From the IMG/VR virus record IMGVR_UViG_2531839235_000024: a DNA stretch of 38,024 nt; one strand, written 5' to 3'. Both the position numbers and the translations under genes were made by a program. This document shows positions 2,483-29,497 of the stretch, in pieces. Below the pieces are notes generated by a model. It was not told where the DNA came from and ran no database searches. It saw only the letters and a program-made list of their open reading frames with translations. Each line of letters starts with the position of its first letter. The first letter of the stretch is position 1. Origin of the DNA: a virus. Its lineage: Duplodnaviria > Heunggongvirae > Uroviricota > Caudoviricetes.

Positions 2483-4531
2483 TTATTCTGTTACCGCTTT
2501 TTTCACTTCCACCACAATGCTGTCAATCAGCACCGGGTAAGTTGCATTTTTTGTGATATCCGTTACGCGGAGTTTGTCCACCGGGAAAGTTCCTACTGGT
2601 GACTGCGTCAGGGTAAACGCGGCACCATCCTGACCATCAATAACCGGAATAACCTGAAGGCTGTTATTTCCTGCAAAACGGAAGGCCAGCGTATGCCATT
2701 CATTATCAAATGCACCAAAGGTTCCCAGTTTCTGGTTATTTGTTGCCACTTTTGCATTGTGGTACATCACATTCAGGTCTTTTGCGTCTGTCTGGATGTA
2801 GAACGATGCCAGCAGATTATTCCCTGCATCCCCTGTCAGGGTGACACCCTGCGGCAGAGAGGAAACCGGCCAGTAAAGCGCCATGACATACTGGTTTGCC
2901 ACCAGGTCGCCCGGTACTTTAAAACGACAACTGATTAAACCACCATTTTTCAGCAGTTCAGCACCAGTACCGGCATCATGATCCAGATACCAGGATGATT
3001 TACCTGTTTCCTTGGTCAGTTTCATTGCCTTACCACCTGTGCCTCCTGCATCACTGATAATTTCAGCTTTACCGCCAGCCGGCTCCCAGCCCTGGGCTTT
3101 CAGATTTCCTTCTGACTCACTGACACGGTAAGACAGCAGTGTTGTGGTTACTGCTTCAGTTTCTGAAGGTGACGGCACTGGTGCTTCAGTTTCAGAAGAT
3201 GGAACATCGGCTTTTACTGTGGTTCGCCCCGCATGAGTCAGAACTGCCGTGGCCAGACGGTCGGAAATAATCCCACGACGTGCCCATGAACTGAAATGGC
3301 TGGCCCGGTCCGTAGATGTCCAGGTGGCGGCACTGTTACGCCACGTTGAGCCGTAATAACCAATGGATTCAATATCCGGGTCTTCTGCCGGATTGTTGGT
3401 GGGTACATTCGCGCCATTTTCATCTGTCATTAATGGGACGAAATGAATGTTTTTATCTGTTTTATTTTTGTAGCCGTCATAGATTGCCTGGTATGCCTGT
3501 TCGTTTTTCTGTTTCCAGAAATACGTGGTATCACCACAAATCCACGGAACGCCAGCAGCACTGCCACCGGTACACTGTTCCGCCTGTTCAGCCAGGTCTG
3601 CGCGGAATTTTTCCACCATCGCCAGAAACAGCGCAGAATGCTCCGTCGGCTTCGCATCAATATCAAACTCGCCCTGCATCCACACCACAGCAAGCAGGCG
3701 GTTTTTCGGGTTCTTCGCCAGTGCCGCTTTTGTCCGGCTGATTAAGTCCTTATACAGCGGCTTATCCACACCCCAGCGGGCTGAGTCCTCTGAAGCACCC
3801 GTGCTGTCACTGTACGTGCCGTCAGCACCCGCCGTGAATGCAGAACCACCACGGCAGCAGGGAACCAGCAGAATCCCCGCATCTGCCGGAATAAACGGCA
3901 GCAGTTTTTTGGCAATGTGAAGCCCCTGACCCACGGTGCCATATTGCCCTTTAGCCACATCCGCTTTCGGGTGATTTTTTCCACTCATATCCTGCACATC
4001 ATGCAGACAGTGGTCGGCCAGAATGATGTCGTTATACTGACAGGCTTTACCTCCCGGCGTGACTGTACTGCGACGGGCTAACTGCATAATACGCGGTTCG
4101 GGGCGGTCATATGTCTCCGGCAGTGGCAGACCTTCACCGTAAGCCATACCGTTTGACTGACCAGCAAGAACCACCACGTAATACCAGGAAGGGGAGCTGG
4201 AAGCCGTTTCATTTCCTGCCGGACGGGTATGTGTTTCTGCATTATCCCAGTCTGACGGTTCAGTAGTACCGGCAACATCAGCACTTAACGGAATGACAGC
4301 ACCAATACCCGCTCCGGTAATTTCCACGTTCGGATCACCGGATACTGGCCTTACCCACAGGCAATCCTGTGTATTAAAACTGATGAGACAGTCAGCAAAT
4401 GTCATTCCTCCTTTCGTTTCAGCAGGAGGAAAGGGAGCCTCAAGAAATGCCGCTGTACCACCGGAAACTTTAACGGTAAAGTTTCCGGGCATTGATGATA
4501 GTTGAACCCATTTGGACGTCATAATATTCAT
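2483..4531 (-). CDS. Carbohydrate esterase, SASA/SGNH-hydrolase type (sialate O-acetylesterase-like, NanS-p-like) with a C-terminal lectin-like domain
   Basis: 682-aa ORF containing the esterase blocks VVLAGQSNGMAYGEG and VVWMQGEFD, a Ser/Thr/Pro/Glu-rich linker (SSETEAPVPSPSETEA) and a roughly 240-aa C-terminal domain; AGGA RBS before ATG at 4531. It has no counterpart at this position in Mu. Confidence 0.6.
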   Translation of the reverse strand: MNIMTSKWVQLSSMPGNFTVKVSGGTAAFLEAPFPPAETKGGMTFADCLISFNTQDCLWVRPVSGDPNVEITGAGIGAVIPLSADVAGTTEPSDWDNAETHTRPAGNETASSSPSWYYVVVLAGQSNGMAYGEGLPLPETYDRPEPRIMQLARRSTVTPGGKACQYNDIILADHCLHDVQDMSGKNHPKADVAKGQYGTVGQGLHIAKKLLPFIPADAGILLVPCCRGGSAFTAGADGTYSDSTGASEDSARWGVDKPLYKDLISRTKAALAKNPKNRLLAVVWMQGEFDIDAKPTEHSALFLAMVEKFRADLAEQAEQCTGGSAAGVPWICGDTTYFWKQKNEQAYQAIYDGYKNKTDKNIHFVPLMTDENGANVPTNNPAEDPDIESIGYYGSTWRNSAATWTSTDRASHFSSWARRGIISDRLATAVLTHAGRTTVKADVPSSETEAPVPSPSETEAVTTTLLSYRVSESEGNLKAQGWEPAGGKAEIISDAGGTGGKAMKLTKETGKSSWYLDHDAGTGAELLKNGGLISCRFKVPGDLVANQYVMALYWPVSSLPQGVTLTGDAGNNLLASFYIQTDAKDLNVMYHNAKVATNNQKLGTFGAFDNEWHTLAFRFAGNNSLQVIPVIDGQDGAAFTLTQSPVGTFPVDKLRVTDITKNATYPVLIDSIVVEVKKAVTE

Positions 4532-4621
4532 CCTGTTCCTGAATAAACAGAATTATCATATCCACAGACCGATAAACGCCATTTTGCGTTAATTCAGTAA
4601 AGGCCCAACAAAGGGAGCGTC

Positions 4622-5182
4622 TTATTTTTCCGAAACGCTCGCAGGATAATAACGATAAAGGGTTGAAAGGCCGATATCAAAAATAAGTGCCACCTGTCTT
4701 CGACTGACACCCCCGGCCAGTAAACGCCCGACCTGCTCGTATTGTTCCTGCGTGAGACGACGGGGTCTGCCGCCGGTTCGTCCCCTTTCACGGGCAGCTG
4801 CAAGACCAGCCCGTGTCCGTTCGACAATTAATTCACGCTCCATTTCTGCCAGCGCACCCATTATGTGAAAAAAGAAGCGCCCCATGGGGGTTGACGTATC
4901 AATGTTGTCAGTAAGACTACGAAAATTTATCCCCTGTTGCTGTAATTCATCTGTCAGCGCAACAAGGTGGCGCATACTGCGCCCCAGCCTGTCCAGTTTC
5001 CAGACCATCAGTGTGTCACCGGGTTTTAGTTTCTTCAGTGCCCGCTTCAGTCCCGGCCGCTGTGTCGTTTTACCACTCATTTTGTCTTCAAAAATCTGCT
5101 CACATCCTGCACATTCCAGCGCATTTCTTTGTAAACCGGTGTTCTGGTCATTTGTTGATACGCGTATATAGCCAATCAGCAT
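4622..5182 (-). CDS. gin: Gin/Hin/Pin-family serine DNA invertase
   Basis: 186 aa; N-terminal MLIGYIRVSTNDQNTGLQRNALECAGCEQIFEDK...TLMVWKLDRLGRS and C-terminal HTH GGRPRRLT match Mu Gin and serine invertases nearly residue for residue. Confidence 0.92.
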   Translation of the reverse strand: MLIGYIRVSTNDQNTGLQRNALECAGCEQIFEDKMSGKTTQRPGLKRALKKLKPGDTLMVWKLDRLGRSMRHLVALTDELQQQGINFRSLTDNIDTSTPMGRFFFHIMGALAEMERELIVERTRAGLAAARERGRTGGRPRRLTQEQYEQVGRLLAGGVSRRQVALIFDIGLSTLYRYYPASVSEK

Positions 5183-5236
5183 GTATTTACCTTCCTTAAA
5201 AAGAGGTGGAAAGGCCTTTTAAAGCAGATATACGGC

Positions 5237-5262
5237 ATCCCTGAAACCTCGGTTTACGGGAT
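5237..5262. repeat. gix/hix-like recombination site (ATCCCTGAAACC-TC-GGTTTACGGGAT), gin-proximal boundary of the invertible segment
   Basis: 26-bp near-perfect palindrome with a 2-bp core, half-sites ending in AAACC as in Hin/Gin crossover sites; lies 55 bp upstream of the gin ATG. Confidence 0.55.
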
Positions 5263-5607
5263 ACTGTAAACAGGGCCGCGAATGCCCTGCCATCGAACGG
5301 AACGGCTGTTGCAGCGAATAAACTCGCCACTCCAAGAAATATTAATGGTGTCCCATTTGACGGAACGCAGGATATAAATATTACATCGGGGATGACGCAG
5401 TCTGTGGCTGACTCACGTTATGTTCAAAGCATTCGAAGAGGTTCAAGGTCAACGATTGGAATGCAATATAATATTTTTGAAGTTCCTGACGGATGCGTAC
5501 TTACAGGGCTTGATGTCGCTGGTGATGGTAATGCAACGGTAACCGCATATTATCGACCTGTTCAGTTTCTGATAGATGGTTCGTGGAAAACAGCTTCCAG
5601 CGCATAA
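5251..5607 (+). CDS. Alternative tail-fibre C-terminal segment (Sv'-like; has no own start, expressed only after inversion)
   Basis: Plus-strand frame encodes GLRDTVNRAANALPSNGTAVAANKLATPRNINGVPFDGTQDINITSGMTQSVADSRYVQ..., about 80% identical to residues 178-236 of the minus-strand tail fibre and in frame with the crossover core. Confidence 0.6.
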   Translation, partial: GLRDTVNRAANALPSNGTAVAANKLATPRNINGVPFDGTQDINITSGMTQSVADSRYVQSIRRGSRSTIGMQYNIFEVPDGCVLTGLDVAGDGNATVTAYYRPVQFLIDGSWKTASSA

Positions 5608-5686
5608 AAGTGCAGTAGTTCAAAAAACAGATTATCTGAATAAATATATGATGATTTTGTCTTTTCAACAAAAACAAGGTGAAATA

Positions 5687-6208
5687 ATGGAGCTTATTAA
5701 CGTAAAACGATATTACCCGGAACACAAACCCTATGGTGAGGATGTTCAGTATTTCCAGAGTGAGGACGGAAGGGATTTTTATGAATCTATCCCGCTTTTC
5801 ACAAAGAAATACAAACTCTGTATTTCGCCTGTAACGGGTATTATCTGCTCTGTTGCTGAAGATGTCTCTGCTTTATATCCGGCAGGTTTTACTGTTGTTG
5901 AAGTGGACGAACTGCCGGAAGGTGTGAATATTGACGGTAACTGGCAGTGTTCTGATGGCCTGATATCAAAGGTGCCGGTAAACTGGAAGACGGTTGCTGA
6001 AAAGCGTCGCTCATCGCTGCTCCAGGAAGCCAACGAAACCGTGGATGACTGGAAAACAGAATTAAAACTGGACATGATTAGCGATGAAAATAAATTACAG
6101 CTGACGCGCTGGATGGCGTATATCCGACAGCTTAAAGAAATGCACTTTAATGATATTGCCAGTGAGGGGCATTACCAGGCGATTCCCTGGCCGGAAAAAC
6201 CGGAATAA
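5687..6208 (+). CDS. Tail fibre assembly chaperone (U'/Tfa-like)
   Basis: ATG at 5687 preceded by AAGGTG; 173 aa, typical size and position for the chaperone following the variable fibre segment inside the invertible region. Confidence 0.65.
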   Translation: MELINVKRYYPEHKPYGEDVQYFQSEDGRDFYESIPLFTKKYKLCISPVTGIICSVAEDVSALYPAGFTVVEVDELPEGVNIDGNWQCSDGLISKVPVNWKTVAEKRRSSLLQEANETVDDWKTELKLDMISDENKLQLTRWMAYIRQLKEMHFNDIASEGHYQAIPWPEKPE

Positions 6209-6213
6209 TTCAG

Positions 6214-6236
6214 AGGGTGCATTCAGCACCCTTTTC
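6214..6236. terminator. Stem-loop terminator between convergent U' and S (AGGGTGC-ATTCA-GCACCCT + TTTT)
   Basis: 7-bp stem followed by a T-run on the plus strand, between the U' stop (6208) and the S stop (6243). Confidence 0.5.
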
Positions 6237-6242
6237 TGTGGT

Positions 6243-7154
6243 TTACACTGAACTTACCGTTCTCCAGGCATTATTAATATAAATCTGAACCGGGCGATAA
6301 TAGACCCCACCGATATTGTCCGCAGACCGGGAGCCGGTTTCCTGCACGTTAATACCGGAAAGCATACAACCGGAAGGTGCGCTGTAATTCCATGATATTT
6401 CATTGCCTCCGGGTGAATGATAGCTCTGTGCTCCAAGCTGAACATTCTGTACATACCGGCCATCTGCGGTTGACTGCGTCATTCCTGACGTGATGTTGAT
6501 ATCCTGCGTTCCGTCAAAAGGAACGCCATTAATATTTCTTGGGGTGGCGAGTCTGTTTGCTGCCACGGCGGTTCCACCCGATGGCAGGGCATCAGCAGCC
6601 TTATTTACCGTTTCCCGTAAACCGACGTTATCGATAAAAGCGCCTTTATCCGGAATGTCTGCGCCGTTCTGCTCCCTGCGCAGGTAACGGTTATCACCTT
6701 CGCTTTTGCTGTAAACATCCAGATTATTACGGGCGGTTCCCGCATTCTCCAGGTCGGCAAGGTTCTGATCCTTCGCCAGAGCATTAACGTCACCGGGACC
6801 AAGACTGTTTTTTGTGGCAAGCGCCCCAAGACCAAGATAACCACGGGCAAGACGCTGGGCTTCCGCACCGGCATCAGCAATTTCTTTCAGGTTGTTTTTC
6901 CGGGAAAAGGCATTCGCAGCGATAATGGCTTTAATGGACAGCGTAAGCTGGTTTAACTGCGCCTTATCCGGCTGAATACTGGCTTCAGCCAGAATATTCA
7001 GCAGTTCGGCCTGGAGAATATTCAGCCAGTCCTGACCAATCCAGCTGATACCTTTTTGTCCGTCACCTTCGGTAAACCAGGTGGTGGTATTACTCTGCGC
7101 CGGTGCCAGCGCAGGCATATTCGCCACGCCGGAATTATTATCAACATGAAACAT
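6243..7154 (-). CDS. Tail fibre protein (S-like; constant N-terminal part fused to the currently expressed variable C-terminus)
   Basis: 303 aa, follows gp48 with a TAATG stop/start overlap; its C-terminal third is paralogous to the plus-strand Sv' segment; a gix-like site lies inside the coding frame at 6612-6637. Confidence 0.75.
   Translation of the reverse strand: MFHVDNNSGVANMPALAPAQSNTTTWFTEGDGQKGISWIGQDWLNILQAELLNILAEASIQPDKAQLNQLTLSIKAIIAANAFSRKNNLKEIADAGAEAQRLARGYLGLGALATKNSLGPGDVNALAKDQNLADLENAGTARNNLDVYSKSEGDNRYLRREQNGADIPDKGAFIDNVGLRETVNKAADALPSGGTAVAANRLATPRNINGVPFDGTQDINITSGMTQSTADGRYVQNVQLGAQSYHSPGGNEISWNYSAPSGCMLSGINVQETGSRSADNIGGVYYRPVQIYINNAWRTVSSV
6612..6637. repeat. Second gix/hix-like site (TTCCCGTAAACC-GA-CGTTATCGATAA) inside the tail-fibre gene, inverted relative to the site at 5237-5262
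   Basis: Inner half-site and core are the reverse complement of the inner half of the first site (11 of 12 plus core); the flanking roughly 170-bp arms (5251-5430 vs 6445-6623) are inverted repeats of about 80% identity. Confidence 0.5.
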
Positions 7155-7714
7155 TAAATAGTCTCCTCTTCATGGCTGTTTGCATACACGTAAATAAACG
7201 TCTGCCATGCAGGCTTATAACGGTTCAGAATACATTCCAGCGCACCGCCTTCATAAATACGCAGCGGCGTGAGAATATCATCCAGCACATTCATATTCCG
7301 GTAGCCGGTTTCACTGTTAATCGTGACAATACTGACCCACTGTGAATCCGGTGATGGCTGAATATCTATTTCATAACCAAACTCTGCCGCAAACCGGATA
7401 TAAAATTCACGGTTAAGAGAGGGTTTCATCCGGTATTTATTCCCGGCATAACGCTGACGCTCCTGAATTGTTGCGCCGGTCATATCACATTCCGGTAACC
7501 CCAGATAACGCTCCCAGTCTTCCAGCAGCAGACGGGATGAATCAGGAAAACGTTCTGCCAGCATCTGGTTACCGGTCCAGGAAACACGCTCCGTGGAATG
7601 ACTGAGGCCCAGGCACAAAGCCGCAAGAACGGATGACGGCCGCTTATCCCATGCCAGCCCGTCAGGCAGCAACTGCAACAGGGCACGCTGATGCGGGGTC
7701 AGGGTTACAGCCAT
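7154..7714 (-). CDS. Tail/baseplate protein, Mu gp48-like
   Basis: 186 aa, between the baseplate J-like gene and the tail fibre as in Mu; translationally coupled to S. Confidence 0.6.
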   Translation of the reverse strand: MAVTLTPHQRALLQLLPDGLAWDKRPSSVLAALCLGLSHSTERVSWTGNQMLAERFPDSSRLLLEDWERYLGLPECDMTGATIQERQRYAGNKYRMKPSLNREFYIRFAAEFGYEIDIQPSPDSQWVSIVTINSETGYRNMNVLDDILTPLRIYEGGALECILNRYKPAWQTFIYVYANSHEEETI

Positions 7715-20518: not shown

Positions 20519-20694
20519 TCCGGCAGCATAAGCCGGGAATTTTCAGGACGGGTTTTGCGGGATTTCAGGAAGTGCTTTCAGGGGAAAAATACAAAGGCGC
20601 TTCACGCAGATTTTAAAGCCCGTTAAATACAGGTTAGAAAATCACGACACGCGCCTGAAGGGGGTAAGGTAATGCATTTGCATACCTTAAACAA

Positions 20695-21168
20695 TTAAGG
20701 CGTTTCTGTGGCCTTTTTAAAGCGTTTTCTGATTTCGTCCATGATCTCCTGCTCTGCCACCTGATCAAAGCCCATATACGGACGTGCACCAATGGCCGCC
20801 GGTCCAGGCGGCATACCTGGCAGGCCACCCCACTGATGAATGGCCGCATAAGGCTCATTTGATCCAATCAGCGCCCAGGTATCGCCATAATCCGTGGTCA
20901 GGCGTCGGGCCAGATCGCCGTTCAGCGTCAGGATTTTGCCGGGCATGTATCCCTTACGGGTACGCCACTTGCGGTAAGGATCTGACCAGTCATGCCAGCG
21001 TTCGCCGTCCGGCTCTTTTTCCTGTTCAAACGCCATTTCTGACGATGACAGAAGGCTGGACGCCACACTGCGGGCCAGGTCTTTTCCGCCACCCACAAAC
21101 TGAAGCCGGGCAAAGACCCGCTGGAGACGCGTAACGTCAACAACGACGGCGGCATCAATGGATGACAT
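20695..21168 (-). CDS. Virion morphogenesis protein (Mu G-like)
   Basis: 157 aa; position. Confidence 0.6.
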   Translation of the reverse strand: MSSIDAAVVVDVTRLQRVFARLQFVGGGKDLARSVASSLLSSSEMAFEQEKEPDGERWHDWSDPYRKWRTRKGYMPGKILTLNGDLARRLTTDYGDTWALIGSNEPYAAIHQWGGLPGMPPGPAAIGARPYMGFDQVAEQEIMDEIRKRFKKATETP

Positions 21169-28492: not shown

Positions 28493-28918
28493 TCAGAAAA
28501 GTGGCGGTTGCGTTCTTGCCAGATGCAGACGGCGCTGTTCGCGTATGACGGTATAAATCTGGGTTTCTGACATCCGGTAATGGCGGCGAAGGGATTCAAT
28601 TTTCTCGCCCCGGTCCCAGCGCGAAAATATCTCATTGTTTCGCAGCTCGGCAAAGAGAGATTCCCCGACCGGCAGGTAATAACCCCGTCCGCCCATATAG
28701 GCTGCCTGAGCCGCAGCCACCTTGCGTGCCAGTTTACCGGCCAGTACCGGCTCAATCCCCTGACGCTGAAGTTCTGCGCCGGTGACTTCAACCAGTTCTG
28801 ACAGGGTCCGCGGCCAGTTCTTTTTGAGAACATCATCAGGGATGTCATCAAGGCGGTCGATAAGGGCGTGCAGTTGCTCACTGTCACCACCAAACATGCT
28901 CATCTGAGTTTCTGCCAT
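28493..28918 (-). CDS. Mor/C-family transcriptional activator (probable late-gene activator C analogue)
   Basis: 141 aa with the C-terminal HTH pattern LRRHYRMSETQIYTVIREQRR resembling Mu Mor/C; immediately upstream of the lysis genes. Confidence 0.65.
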   Translation of the reverse strand: MAETQMSMFGGDSEQLHALIDRLDDIPDDVLKKNWPRTLSELVEVTGAELQRQGIEPVLAGKLARKVAAAQAAYMGGRGYYLPVGESLFAELRNNEIFSRWDRGEKIESLRRHYRMSETQIYTVIREQRRLHLARTQPPLF

Positions 28919-28987
28919 ATCAGCCTCCGGTTCTCGCGTTCCCGGTAAGTTTAAAATAAAAATCCCGCGTTGTGGCGGGATTTGGGG

Positions 28988-29497
28988 TTAACGGGGAAGT
29001 GATTTTTCATACTGCCTGCAAACGGCGTCATACCCCATCAGCGTGCGTTCGGGCATTCCCATCGCGGCCAGCATTTTGCGGCGGTGCCATCGCTTGAGAC
29101 GCTCCAGCACATCTGAGGCCAGGGCGGGGTGTTGCTCCAGCCACTGCCAGTTTGCCACACCTTCGCCGCCGTTCTGCGCGGCCGTCTGCGATTTCACCCA
29201 GCGGTTAAGAGCGGTTTCCGCACCATCAGAGATAAAGCCCTGCCGGTGCATCACTTTCCAGATGGCGCGAATTTTGGCGGTCACCGTACCCGGTTTTAAG
29301 GCCCGGTTAACCGGTTTCTGACGCACTTTAAAACCGCGTTTTTTGAAAACATCCAGCACGCGGGATAACTCACCGGGTGACATATCCCGGCAGCTGGTTT
29401 TGCCGGTGGCTGCCAGTAGTACGAATGTGTAGGTCTCATCATCTAGGGCAAGCTCGCGCTTTGCCACATGAATAGCGGATATCAGTTTCCCTCTCAT
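28988..29497 (-). CDS. gemA: GemA-like protein (Mu gp16)
   Basis: N-terminus ...ISAIHVAKRELALDDETYTFVLLAATGKTSCRDMSPGELSRVLDVFKKRGFKVR matches Mu GemA as I recall it. Confidence 0.7.
   Translation of the reverse strand: MRGKLISAIHVAKRELALDDETYTFVLLAATGKTSCRDMSPGELSRVLDVFKKRGFKVRQKPVNRALKPGTVTAKIRAIWKVMHRQGFISDGAETALNRWVKSQTAAQNGGEGVANWQWLEQHPALASDVLERLKRWHRRKMLAAMGMPERTLMGYDAVCRQYEKSLPR

What the first reader, a model, noticed from the sequence alone, without database searches (positions are those of the whole stretch)
5183..6640. Compact Gin-invertible tail-fibre switch carrying only one chaperone gene
Two gix/hix-like sites (5237-5262 and 6612-6637) in inverted orientation flank about 1.38 kb, extended by roughly 170-bp imperfect inverted repeats. 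The second site lies inside the tail-fibre reading frame (codons 173-181). Inversion at the 2-bp core would replace the current C-terminal tip (6243-6623, minus) with the plus-strand Sv' tip (5251-5607) in frame and bring the single chaperone gene (5687-6208) downstream of it. In the present orientation the fibre gene has no chaperone on its own strand, unlike the Mu G segment with two S/U pairs. This suggests one fibre variant folds without a dedicated chaperone, or that this orientation yields a non-functional fibre (a phase-off state).
Basis: partly seen in the sequence, partly recalled or inferred. Interest (0 to 1): 0.75.

Follow-up and report, generated by a model that had tools for sequence, protein, structure and literature searches.

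The report
One-chaperone invertible phage tail-fibre switch
This is the flip-flop host-range switch of the Mu-like prophage Sp18 of E. coli O157:H7, which really inverts in nature and is unusual in keeping one fibre-folding chaperone gene, apparently separately transcribed and shared by both alternative fibre tips, where Mu, SfMu and e14 keep two.

Summary
A Gin-like invertase (75% identical to Mu Gin), two gix sites and 182-nt imperfect inverted repeats flank about 1.37 kb. Flipping at the 2-bp cores swaps the last 126 aa of the fibre for a 118-aa alternative, in frame. Both orientations exist in complete E. coli genomes, joined as predicted (182 present, 23 flipped). The window is prophage Sp18, whose invertible region was noted in 2009.

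The one-chaperone layout is real and family-wide: the window holds a single tfa, and relatives with other tip and Tfa alleles share the layout.

- Sv belongs to a tip class that is followed by a tfa everywhere else examined.
- Sv is under strong purifying selection (dN/dS 0.06-0.11).
- The Tfa's fibre-binding half is closest to the partner of Sv-like tips, not of Sv'-like tips.
- Relatives that lost gin and tip' are frozen in this convergent arrangement with tfa intact.
- Published array data show tip'-tfa co-transcribed independently of the fibre operon.

Best reading: one separately transcribed chaperone serves both tips. This is inferred, not shown. It is a new variant of a known kind, of moderate interest.

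The parts
4622..5182 (-). Gin-family DNA invertase (186 aa; ECs_4992 in Sakai)
   Evidence: Pfam Resolvase 1.4e-51 and HTH_7 1.7e-14. It is 75% identical to Mu Gin over 181 aa. The catalytic-serine motif GYIRVSTNDQ is visible in the translation.
5237..5262 (.). gix-like crossover site, gin-proximal (core TC at 5249-5250)
   Evidence: Its reverse complement matches Mu gix at 19/26 positions. It is one of only two matches to the shared core pattern in the window, with 0.03 expected by chance. It forms the junction in the flipped genomes.
6612..6637 (.). gix-like crossover site inside the fibre ORF (core GA at 6624-6625; codons 173-181)
   Evidence: It matches Mu gix at 22/26 positions. It sits at the same position in the fibre protein as the Mu G-segment boundary: FIDNVGLRETVN here and FIQNLGLQETVN in Mu.
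5245..5426 (.). Left arm of the 182-nt imperfect inverted repeat (5' part of the silent tip Sv')
   Evidence: the repeat finder pair I1, 79% complementary to 6448-6629. It encodes the shared GLR(D/E)TVN...NINGVPFDGTQDINITSGMTQS stretch.
6448..6629 (.). Right arm of the inverted repeat (5' part of the expressed tip Sv)
5251..5607 (+). Sv', the silent alternative fibre tip (118 aa; its 3' part is annotated as ECs_4991)
   Evidence: It is in frame with Sc after the flip and gives a 295-aa fibre. It is 58% identical to Sv overall and 40% in the distal 80 aa. Its closest reference is the Hafnia phage yong1 fibre tip at 59%. dN/dS is 0.14.
5608..5686 (+). 79-nt AT-rich spacer between the Sv' stop and the tfa start, with the RBS AAGGTG
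   Evidence: The gap is 51-121 nt in every cassette type of this family, against 4-17 nt in ordinary fibre-tfa pairs where the frame was read correctly. In the T2-type and locked relatives the 50 nt upstream of the tfa ATG are the most conserved stretch: pi 0.038, against 0.15 further upstream and 0.17-0.24 at tfa third positions. No sigma-70 consensus was found here.
5687..6208 (+). tfa, the only tail-fibre assembly chaperone gene (173 aa; ECs_4990)
   Evidence: PF02413 at 5.1e-18. It matches Mu U, PDB 5YVQ_B, at 3.5e-14. It is the sole hit of a Tfa HMM in six-frame ORFs of the whole window. Its N-terminal half is 69% identical to Rac-SA53 tail2.
6212..6234 (.). Hairpin between the convergent stops of tfa and the fibre gene; probable bidirectional terminator
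   Evidence: It is terminator-like on the + strand. Free energy is -14.2 and -14.7 kcal/mol on the two strands, with z-scores -3.6 and -4.6. A hairpin is kept in other alleles with a different stem sequence and is flagged on the minus strand there.
6243..6623 (-). Sv, the fibre tip currently fused to the constant part (126 aa)
   Evidence: The distal 75 aa match the Mu S tip (5YVQ_A residues 434-503). It is 70% identical to the Rac-SA53 tail1 tip, 60% to SfMu_52 and 56% to fiAA91-ss H. dN/dS is 0.06-0.11.
6624..7154 (-). Sc, the constant N-terminal part of fibre S (177 aa; whole gene is ECs_4989)
   Evidence: It matches Mu S residues 1-191 at 3e-43. It directly follows the gp48-like gene at 7154-7714, as in Mu.

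Best explanation
This is the host-range switch of the Sp18 family of Mu-like prophages. It is a G-segment-type invertible cassette cut down to about 1.37 kb.

The switch itself. A Gin-family serine invertase recombines two inverted gix sites, one of them inside the fibre gene. The constant 177-aa fibre base is thereby fused either to tip Sv (126 aa, the present state) or to tip Sv' (118 aa).

How it differs from Mu, SfMu and e14. The segment holds one tfa gene, not two. I propose that this one chaperone serves both tips because it is its own transcription unit:
- it is separated from Sv' by a 51-121-nt spacer rather than being tightly coupled;
- it has its own ribosome-binding site;
- a bidirectional hairpin terminator insulates it from the convergent fibre gene;
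- in the lysogen it is transcribed together with the silent tip' fragment, independently of the late fibre operon.

Consequence. In the flipped state tfa would also be read through from the fibre operon. On this reading the present orientation is a working state, not an off state.

Shown: the switch, its inversion in nature, the in-frame tip exchange, the single tfa, conservation of the layout across the family, purifying selection on all three coding parts, and a tip'-tfa expression profile separate from the neighbouring late genes in published array data.

Inferred: that the Tfa folds both tips, where its promoter lies, and that it is expressed during lytic growth.
For: Switch.
- Invertase domains, and 75% identity to Mu Gin.
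- Two gix sites, with 0.03 expected by chance.
- Same gene order as Mu: gp46-gp47-gp48-S-segment-gin.
- The predicted flipped junction is present in 23 complete genomes against 182 in the present orientation. Some strains carry two copies in opposite orientations.

Single tfa, family-wide.
- Only one Tfa-like ORF exists in the window.
- The layout Gin | tip' | tfa | tip | Sc recurs with four cassette types. Tips are 27-92% identical and Tfa 60-64% identical to the window's, and both orientations occur.

The chaperone is needed and is matched to Sv.
- Sv-like tips are followed by a tfa in SfMu, fiAA91-ss and Rac-SA53, as is the Sv'-like tip of Hafnia yong1.
- In 49 of 49 other loci the tip upstream of the Tfa homologue is closer to Sv than to Sv'.
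- In TfaMu the variable N-terminal domain is the part that binds the fibre (PMC9608196).
- The Tfa N-half is closest to Rac-SA53 tail2 (57-69%) in all cassettes. The convergent tip is closest to Rac tail1 (63-70%).
- The co-oriented tips resemble yong1 or Mu S (58-61%), but the Tfa N-half is only 31-39% identical to the partners of those fibres.
- One Tfa allele (TfaB) is shared by cassettes with very different tips.

Autonomous unit.
- The spacer is 51-121 nt, against 4-17 nt in ordinary pairs.
- The 50 nt upstream of tfa form a bounded conservation footprint.
- The hairpin is conserved as a structure although its sequence differs.
- Sakai has the same orientation as the window.
- In the Sakai array time series, ECs4990 (tfa) and ECs4991 (tip') rise together from about -1 to about +1.3 log2. 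Fibre ECs4989 changes little, gp46 ECs4986 falls and ECs4993 is flat.

Functionality of the present state.
- dN/dS is 0.06-0.11 on Sv.
- Seven IMG/VR loci and 7 of 5426 complete genomes have gin and tip' deleted and are frozen with tfa convergent to the fibre. Their tfa is intact, with dN/dS 0.10-0.23.
- Sp18 is reported as predicted intact, and its DNA is efficiently packaged (PMC2669165).
Against: - No promoter was identified. Consensus sigma-70 scans found nothing upstream of tfa in the window or in L022, and only a 9/12 match in L018.
- The Mu C-dependent late-promoter box is absent upstream of tfa.
- No element distinguishes the two arms of the repeat.
- The three spacer types share no clear motif.
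- The array signal comes from lysogens entering stationary phase, not from lytic development, and the change is about five-fold at most.
- tfa sits next to and co-oriented with Sv', which is the classical position of a partner gene. Simple loss of the other chaperone gene would give the same geometry.
- The conservation footprint rests on one spacer type. The replicate on T3 cassettes had no diversity to test.
- Divergence among the locked loci may have been imported by recombination rather than accumulated after the deletion.
- No binding or folding data exist for either tip.
Confidence: 0.55

Rival explanations
1. Chaperone-independent tip. Sv folds and trimerises without any Tfa, and the single tfa serves only Sv', its co-oriented neighbour. 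The partner gene of Sv was lost because it was dispensable.
For: tfa is adjacent to and co-oriented with Sv'. The Sv stop sits where the stop of a lost chaperone gene would be, 34 nt from the tfa stop, compared with 28 nt between the U and U' stops in Mu. No promoter was found for tfa.
Against: Every homologous tip examined is followed by a tfa. The Tfa N-half tracks the Sv class and not the co-oriented tip. The locked relatives have no tip' at all yet keep tfa intact under purifying selection.
Confidence: 0.13
2. Phase-off state. In the present orientation the fibre cannot mature, so particles are non-infective. Only the flipped orientation gives working phage.
For: There is no tfa on the fibre strand in this orientation. 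Asadulghani et al. scored Sp18 host specificity as 'atypical'.
Against: dN/dS on Sv is 0.06-0.11, with several diverged but intact alleles. This orientation predominates, 182 to 23 and 17 to 6. Locked derivatives are fixed in it and carry two different convergent-tip alleles. tfa is transcribed in this orientation.
Confidence: 0.07
3. Chaperone supplied in trans. Sv is folded by Tfa proteins of other resident prophages, since O157 carries many lambdoid tfa genes. The Sp18 tfa is therefore needed only for Sv'.
For: From general knowledge rather than a test made here, Tfa proteins can cross-complement between phages; lambda Tfa substitutes for T4 gp38. Rac-type Tfa genes with a 64-69% identical N-half are common in E. 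coli prophages.
Against: This would make infectivity depend on the host's prophage content. It does not explain why tfa is kept in locked relatives that lack tip', nor the spacer, footprint and independent transcription.
Confidence: 0.1
4. Host-level function of the 'silent' cassette. The stationary-phase tip'-tfa transcript makes Tfa, and perhaps a free distal tip domain, that acts in the lysogen, for example by masking a receptor against superinfecting phage as reported for StfE2 of e14.
For: ECs4990 and ECs4991 are induced at entry to stationary phase in the lysogen, in the cluster that holds RpoS-regulated genes. In e14 the silent-end chimeric protein StfE2 blocks T2 adsorption (PMC12529663). 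An in-frame ATG at 5392 would give a 71-aa distal tip domain.
Against: There is no good ribosome-binding site before that ATG, as read from the sequence. There is no phenotype or protein evidence. The locked relatives lack the tip' coding region.
Confidence: 0.07

Closest known systems
Phage Mu G segment with Gin (also SfMu)
   Same: The gene order is the same: gp46-gp47-gp48-S-invertible segment-gin. The invertase is 75% identical to Mu Gin. The gix sites match at 19-22 of 26 positions with the same core. The crossover falls at the same point in the fibre protein. Sc is 45% identical to Mu S over 187 aa. Both tips are about 40% identical to the Mu S distal tip, and the Tfa is 28-30% identical to U and U'.
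   Different: The segment is about 1.37 kb rather than about 3 kb. It has one tfa rather than U plus U'. That tfa is convergent with the fibre gene in the commoner orientation. A 79-nt spacer replaces the 2-nt S-U junction. The fibre is 303 or 295 aa rather than 504 aa. An esterase gene lies between gin and com/mom.
e14 P segment with PinE (E. coli K-12)
   Same: It is a compact invertible fibre segment directly after a YmfQ/gp48-like gene, with the invertase immediately downstream. Both orientations are common in sequenced genomes (PMC12529663).
   Different: e14 keeps two convergent tfa genes (stfP-tfaP and tfaE-stfE) in 1797 bp. e14 is a defective element, whereas Sp18 is predicted intact and its DNA is packaged.
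Ordinary fibre-tfa operons (P2-like H-G, Rac-SA53 tail1-tail2)
   Same: The Sv tip is 56-70% identical to these tips. The Tfa is 53% identical overall to Rac-SA53 tail2, and 69% in the N-terminal half.
   Different: In those operons tfa follows its fibre on the same strand within 2-17 nt and nothing inverts. Here the matching tip lies on the opposite strand.

Membership tests
Gin/Hin/Cin/Pin DNA-invertase system | Small serine recombinase with an N-terminal resolvase catalytic domain and a C-terminal HTH | tested here: met
   PF00239 at 1.4e-51 and PF02796 at 1.7e-14. It is 75% identical to Mu Gin. The motif GYIRVSTNDQ places a serine at position 9.
Gin/Hin/Cin/Pin DNA-invertase system | Two 26-bp crossover sites in inverted orientation sharing a 2-bp core | tested here: met
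   Sites at 5237-5262 and 6612-6637 with cores TC and GA. They match Mu gix at 19 and 22 of 26 positions. There are two matches in the window against 0.03 expected.
Gin/Hin/Cin/Pin DNA-invertase system | Fis-dependent recombinational enhancer in cis, inside the 5' part of the invertase gene | tested here: inconclusive
   The 5' 200 nt of gin align with Mu gin and are highly conserved. That conservation cannot be separated from coding constraint, and no Fis-site test was run.
Gin/Hin/Cin/Pin DNA-invertase system | The segment is actually found in both orientations | tested here: met
   182 complete genomes are in the present orientation and 23 match the predicted flipped sequence, at 80% coverage or more. 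The best flipped matches are single pieces at 99.4% identity. IMG/VR relatives split 17 to 6.
Mu G-segment-type host-range switch | Constant fibre N-terminus outside the segment, with the crossover in frame | tested here: met
   Sc is 177 aa. Both fusions are open: 303 aa and 295 aa.
Mu G-segment-type host-range switch | Two alternative fibre C-termini encoded on opposite strands | tested here: met
   Sv at 6243-6623 (-) and Sv' at 5251-5607 (+). They are 58% identical overall and 40% in the distal 80 aa.
Mu G-segment-type host-range switch | Each tip is followed by its own chaperone gene (S-U and S'-U') | tested here: not met
   There is one Tfa-like ORF in the segment and in the whole window. 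Mu, SfMu and e14 each have two.
Caudo_TAP tail-fibre assembly protein (Tfa, Mu U, P2 G) | Sequence membership of PF02413 and homology to TfaMu | tested here: met
   65.9 bits against a cut-off of 22.1. It matches 5YVQ_B at 3.5e-14.
Caudo_TAP tail-fibre assembly protein (Tfa, Mu U, P2 G) | Encoded immediately downstream of its client fibre gene on the same strand | tested here: not met
   In the present and commoner orientation it is convergent with the fibre gene. Even relative to Sv' it is 79 nt away, against 4-17 nt in ordinary pairs.
Caudo_TAP tail-fibre assembly protein (Tfa, Mu U, P2 G) | Binds the fibre tip and promotes its trimerisation | not testable with these tools
   This needs co-expression or binding assays, or a multimer structure prediction.

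The most novel reading that the evidence does not exclude
The cassette next to gin is not silent. A promoter active in the lysogen at entry to stationary phase transcribes tip'-tfa. The products (Tfa, possibly with a free 71-aa distal tip domain) would act for the host, for example by masking a surface receptor against superinfecting phages as reported for StfE2 of e14. Gin inversion would then switch a lysogen phenotype as well as virion host range.
Probability: 0.07. Interest if true: 0.75.

Novelty: new variant of a known kind. Interest (0 to 1): 0.45.

Why it matters
Invertible fibre segments are the textbook case of a phage hedging its host range, and the fibre-plus-own-chaperone pair is treated as the unit that is swapped. 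Here the unit is broken: two tips share one chaperone, and that chaperone looks evolutionarily matched to the tip on the opposite strand.

If one separately transcribed Tfa folds two tips that are only 40% identical in their distal part, three things follow:
- It gives a natural measure of how promiscuous Tfa proteins are, which matters for engineering phage or tailocin host range by tip swapping.
- It shows that chaperone expression can be uncoupled from the fibre operon.
- Annotation pipelines and prophage-intactness scoring should not read a fibre gene without a downstream tfa as defective. Sp18 was scored 'atypical' for host specificity.

The element is common in Shiga-toxin-producing E. 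coli, where host range of a transposing Mu-like phage bears on gene flow.

Tried and rejected
1. Sigma-70 consensus scans for a tfa promoter found nothing in the window spacer or in L022. L018 gave only a 9/12 match at the deletion junction.
2. I derived the Mu C-dependent late-promoter box, (C/G)CATAACCCC, from the four annotated Mu late promoters. TAACCCC- and TTACCCCC-like boxes appear upstream of two presumed late operons of the window, but none appears upstream of tfa.
3. Comparing the two repeat arms for a promoter kept only on the tfa-strand side gave one candidate, TTGACG...TATAAA/TATTAC. Its spacing is wrong and it follows from the coding sequence, so I make no claim.
4. In-frame upstream extensions of tfa (210 aa from 5576 in the window; 190 aa with a hydrophobic leader in the T2-type and locked alleles) are not conserved between alleles and are probably not coding.
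5. The conservation footprint could not be replicated on T3 cassettes because they have almost no diversity.
6. A scan of one genome per species with a Tfa alignment returned only two distant, ordinary loci, so it says nothing further about spread.
7. An Rfam scan of 4400-7300 found nothing.
8. My ORF heuristic picked wrong frames for many non-invertible loci. For those loci I relied on the tblastn table.
9. Two O157 transcriptome papers that mention Sp18 held nothing on this locus.
10. I did not run a census of single-tfa segments among all Gin-like invertase loci.
Full report
WHAT IS THERE. The window is the Mu-like prophage of E. coli O157:H7. The stretch 4600-7200 is 100% identical to several complete genomes. 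The Sakai reference, where the element is called Sp18, carries the same genes in the same order and orientation: fibre ECs_4989, tfa ECs_4990, tip fragment ECs_4991, invertase ECs_4992.

On the minus strand the order is gp46-like, Baseplate_J/gp47, Mu gp48-like (7154-7714), a 303-aa fibre (6243-7154), then the segment, then a Resolvase+HTH_7 invertase (4622-5182). This is the order in phage Mu. The invertase is 75% identical to Mu Gin. The fibre base matches Mu S residues 1-191 (E 3e-43) and its distal 75 aa match the Mu S tip. The chaperone matches Mu U.

CHECK OF THE OBSERVATION. The two 26-bp sites (5237-5262 and 6612-6637) are inverted and share a 2-bp core. They match the gix sequence read from the Mu genome at 19 and 22 of 26 positions. 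Their common core pattern occurs twice in 38 kb, against 0.03 expected. The 182-nt, 79% inverted repeat is the homologous 5' coding part of the two tips. Recombining at the cores replaces the last 126 aa (Sv) with 118 aa (Sv', 5251-5607) in frame.

I built that predicted sequence and searched 5426 complete E. coli genomes. At 80% coverage or more, 23 genomes carry the flipped form and 182 the present form. The best flipped matches are single pieces at 99.4% identity. Some strains hold two copies in opposite orientations. The switch is therefore real and active. A Tfa profile finds one ORF in all six frames of the window, so the one-chaperone statement is also correct.

THE LAYOUT IS A FAMILY TRAIT. 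A scan of viral contigs with the Tfa returned 80 loci. Thirty-one of them belong to this prophage family.

- Twenty-four are invertible, with the layout Gin | tip' | tfa | tip | Sc | gp48. Seventeen have the present orientation, six are flipped and one is cut off upstream.
- They fall into four cassette types whose tips are only 27-92% identical to the window's. They carry two Tfa alleles, 60-64% identical overall, that is 72-76% in the N-terminal half and 47-51% in the C-terminal half.
- None has a second tfa.
- By contrast Mu, SfMu, e14 of K-12 and three G-like loci in the same scan all have two convergent tfa genes.

IS THE PRESENT-ORIENTATION TIP CHAPERONE-FREE OR DEAD? Neither fits the evidence.

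- Sv is 56-70% identical to the tips of fiAA91-ss H, SfMu_52 and Rac-SA53 tail1, each followed within a few bases by a tfa.
- In all 49 non-family loci the tip just upstream of the Tfa homologue is closer to Sv than to Sv'. In 34 of them the identity to Sv is 53-76%.
- Sv alleles differ at saturating synonymous distance but give dN/dS of 0.06-0.11. The other convergent tip type gives 0.08-0.14 and the co-oriented tips 0.14-0.24. A tip that never yields a working fibre should not be held like this.

WHOSE PARTNER IS THE CHAPERONE? In TfaMu the variable N-terminal domain binds the fibre tip and the conserved C-terminal domain drives trimerisation (PMC9608196, summarising the 5YVQ work). I compared each cassette with reference operons in which the fibre-chaperone pairing is unambiguous.

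- The Tfa N-half is always closest to Rac-SA53 tail2 (57-69%).
- The convergent tip of the Sv type is closest to Rac tail1 (63-70%).
- The co-oriented tip is closest to the Hafnia yong1 fibre (59%, window) or to Mu S (58-61%, T2 cassettes). The Tfa N-half is only 31-39% identical to the partners of those fibres.
- One Tfa allele is shared by cassettes whose tips are quite different.

So the chaperone tracks the tip on the opposite strand, or else it is broadly promiscuous. It does not track its co-oriented neighbour.

LOCKED RELATIVES. Seven loci (L016-L021 and L027) have no invertase and no tip'. Their order is esterase (-), about 300 nt, tfa (+), then the fibre (-). They retain the last ~55 nt of gin (window 4622-4676) and a frame-broken remnant of the tip' 3' end, so they arose by a deletion from an invertible ancestor. 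They are frozen in the arrangement seen in the window. They carry two different convergent-tip alleles and have intact tfa with dN/dS 0.10-0.23. The same junction occurs in 7 of 5426 complete genomes.

SIGNS OF AN AUTONOMOUS tfa UNIT.

- The gap between the tip' stop and the tfa start is 79, 120-121 or 51 nt in the three spacer types. In ordinary pairs it is 4-17 nt.
- In nine T2-type and locked loci, the 50 nt before the tfa ATG have pi of 0.038. The values are 0.15 further upstream, 0.17-0.24 at tfa third positions and 0.094 at first and second positions. This is a bounded footprint. The T3 replicate lacked diversity.
- Between the convergent stops, 30-34 nt apart, every allele has a strong hairpin flanked by A and T runs. 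The stem sequence differs between alleles. Free energies are -14 to -16 kcal/mol with z-scores of -3.6 to -5.1 on both strands, and the terminator scan flags it on one strand or the other.
- Published 70-mer array data for Sakai (PMC2241611) list ECs4990 and ECs4991 together. Their log2 indices run -1.08...+1.31 and -0.93...+1.06 over ten time points, with the same shape. Fibre ECs4989 drifts from -0.45 to +0.46, gp46 ECs4986 falls from 1.52 to -0.59, ECs4993 is flat, and ECs4984, 4985, 4987, 4988 and 4992 are not among the significant genes.

Spontaneous induction of a flipped subpopulation would raise the whole late operon, which is not seen. A separate transcript therefore covers tip' and tfa.

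WHAT REMAINS INFERRED. I could not locate the promoter. The array reports lysogens entering stationary phase, not lytic growth. No folding data exist. The simplest structural history, which is loss of the chaperone gene that followed Sv, fits the geometry and would make tfa formally the partner of tip'.

I therefore put about 0.55 on the full model: a Gin switch plus one separately transcribed chaperone serving both tips. The switch itself is near certain. The rivals are a chaperone-independent Sv (0.13), Tfa supplied in trans by other prophages (0.10), a phase-off state (0.07) and a host-level role for the lysogen-expressed cassette (0.07). The last is suggested by the e14 StfE2 result (PMC12529663).

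COMPARISON AND NOVELTY. The element meets the tested criteria of a Gin-family inversion system; the Fis enhancer could not be judged. It works like the Mu G segment but fails one defining feature of that architecture, the paired S-U and S'-U' genes.

[quoted passage not shown] In the papers I searched I found no description of the single chaperone, its convergent placement, its match to the opposite-strand tip, or the locked derivatives.

I rate it a new variant of a known kind, with interest about 0.45. It would surprise a fibre or inversion specialist moderately, and it makes the question of Tfa promiscuity directly testable.

Noticed in passing
window 2483-4531 (-): A 682-aa protein with a SASA sialate O-acetylesterase-type domain and a C-terminal DUF6645 lies directly downstream of gin, between gin and the com/mom-like genes. 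Mu has no such gene there. In the gin-deleted relatives it sits divergently next to tfa. It may be a virion-associated or surface-glycan-modifying enzyme.
   Followed up: partly
L016-L021 and L027 (for example L018 4697-5000); same junction in NZ_CP145714, NZ_AP022815, NZ_CP010219 and others: A sublineage has a deletion of roughly 0.9 kb that removes almost all of gin, one gix site and most of tip'. This locks the fibre region. A frame-broken remnant of the tip' 3' end is left upstream of tfa, and two different fibre-tip alleles occur on this deleted background.
   Followed up: yes
E. coli strains 8479 (NZ_CP074994 and NZ_CP074995), SMN197SH3 (NZ_CP024056) and Z869 (NZ_CP062782): Some genomes carry two or more copies of this Mu-like prophage with the segment in opposite orientations within one strain. 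One copy lies on a 167-kb record separate from the chromosome.
   Followed up: no
LC727881.1 40396-42996 and LC727895.1 38110-40710: Two Stx-converting phage records contain an inserted Mu-like phage carrying this same segment at 94% identity. A transposing phage has therefore landed inside a Shiga-toxin phage.
   Followed up: no
window 5196-5381 (-) and 6490-6687 (+): Open frames antisense to the conserved 5' part of both tips run across the gix sites. RefSeq annotates the left one as a 61-aa hypothetical protein ending 14 nt before gin. It is probably an artefact of the repeat's codon composition.
   Followed up: no
window about 28894-28990 (-) and 20519-20700 (-): TAACCCC and TTACCCCC boxes lie about 27-29 nt upstream of -10-like hexamers, ahead of presumed late operons. 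They resemble the box shared by the four C-dependent late promoters of Mu, so late control here is probably Mu-like.
   Followed up: partly
T2-type cassettes, for example L014 4507-4879 and L026 4508-4880: Some family members carry, as the co-oriented tip, a distal domain 58-61% identical to the Mu S tip. It is followed by a Tfa whose N-terminal half is only 32-39% identical to Mu U. L014 combines this tip with the window's Tfa allele (98%) and the window's Sv (100%), which shows module shuffling inside the segment.
   Followed up: partly
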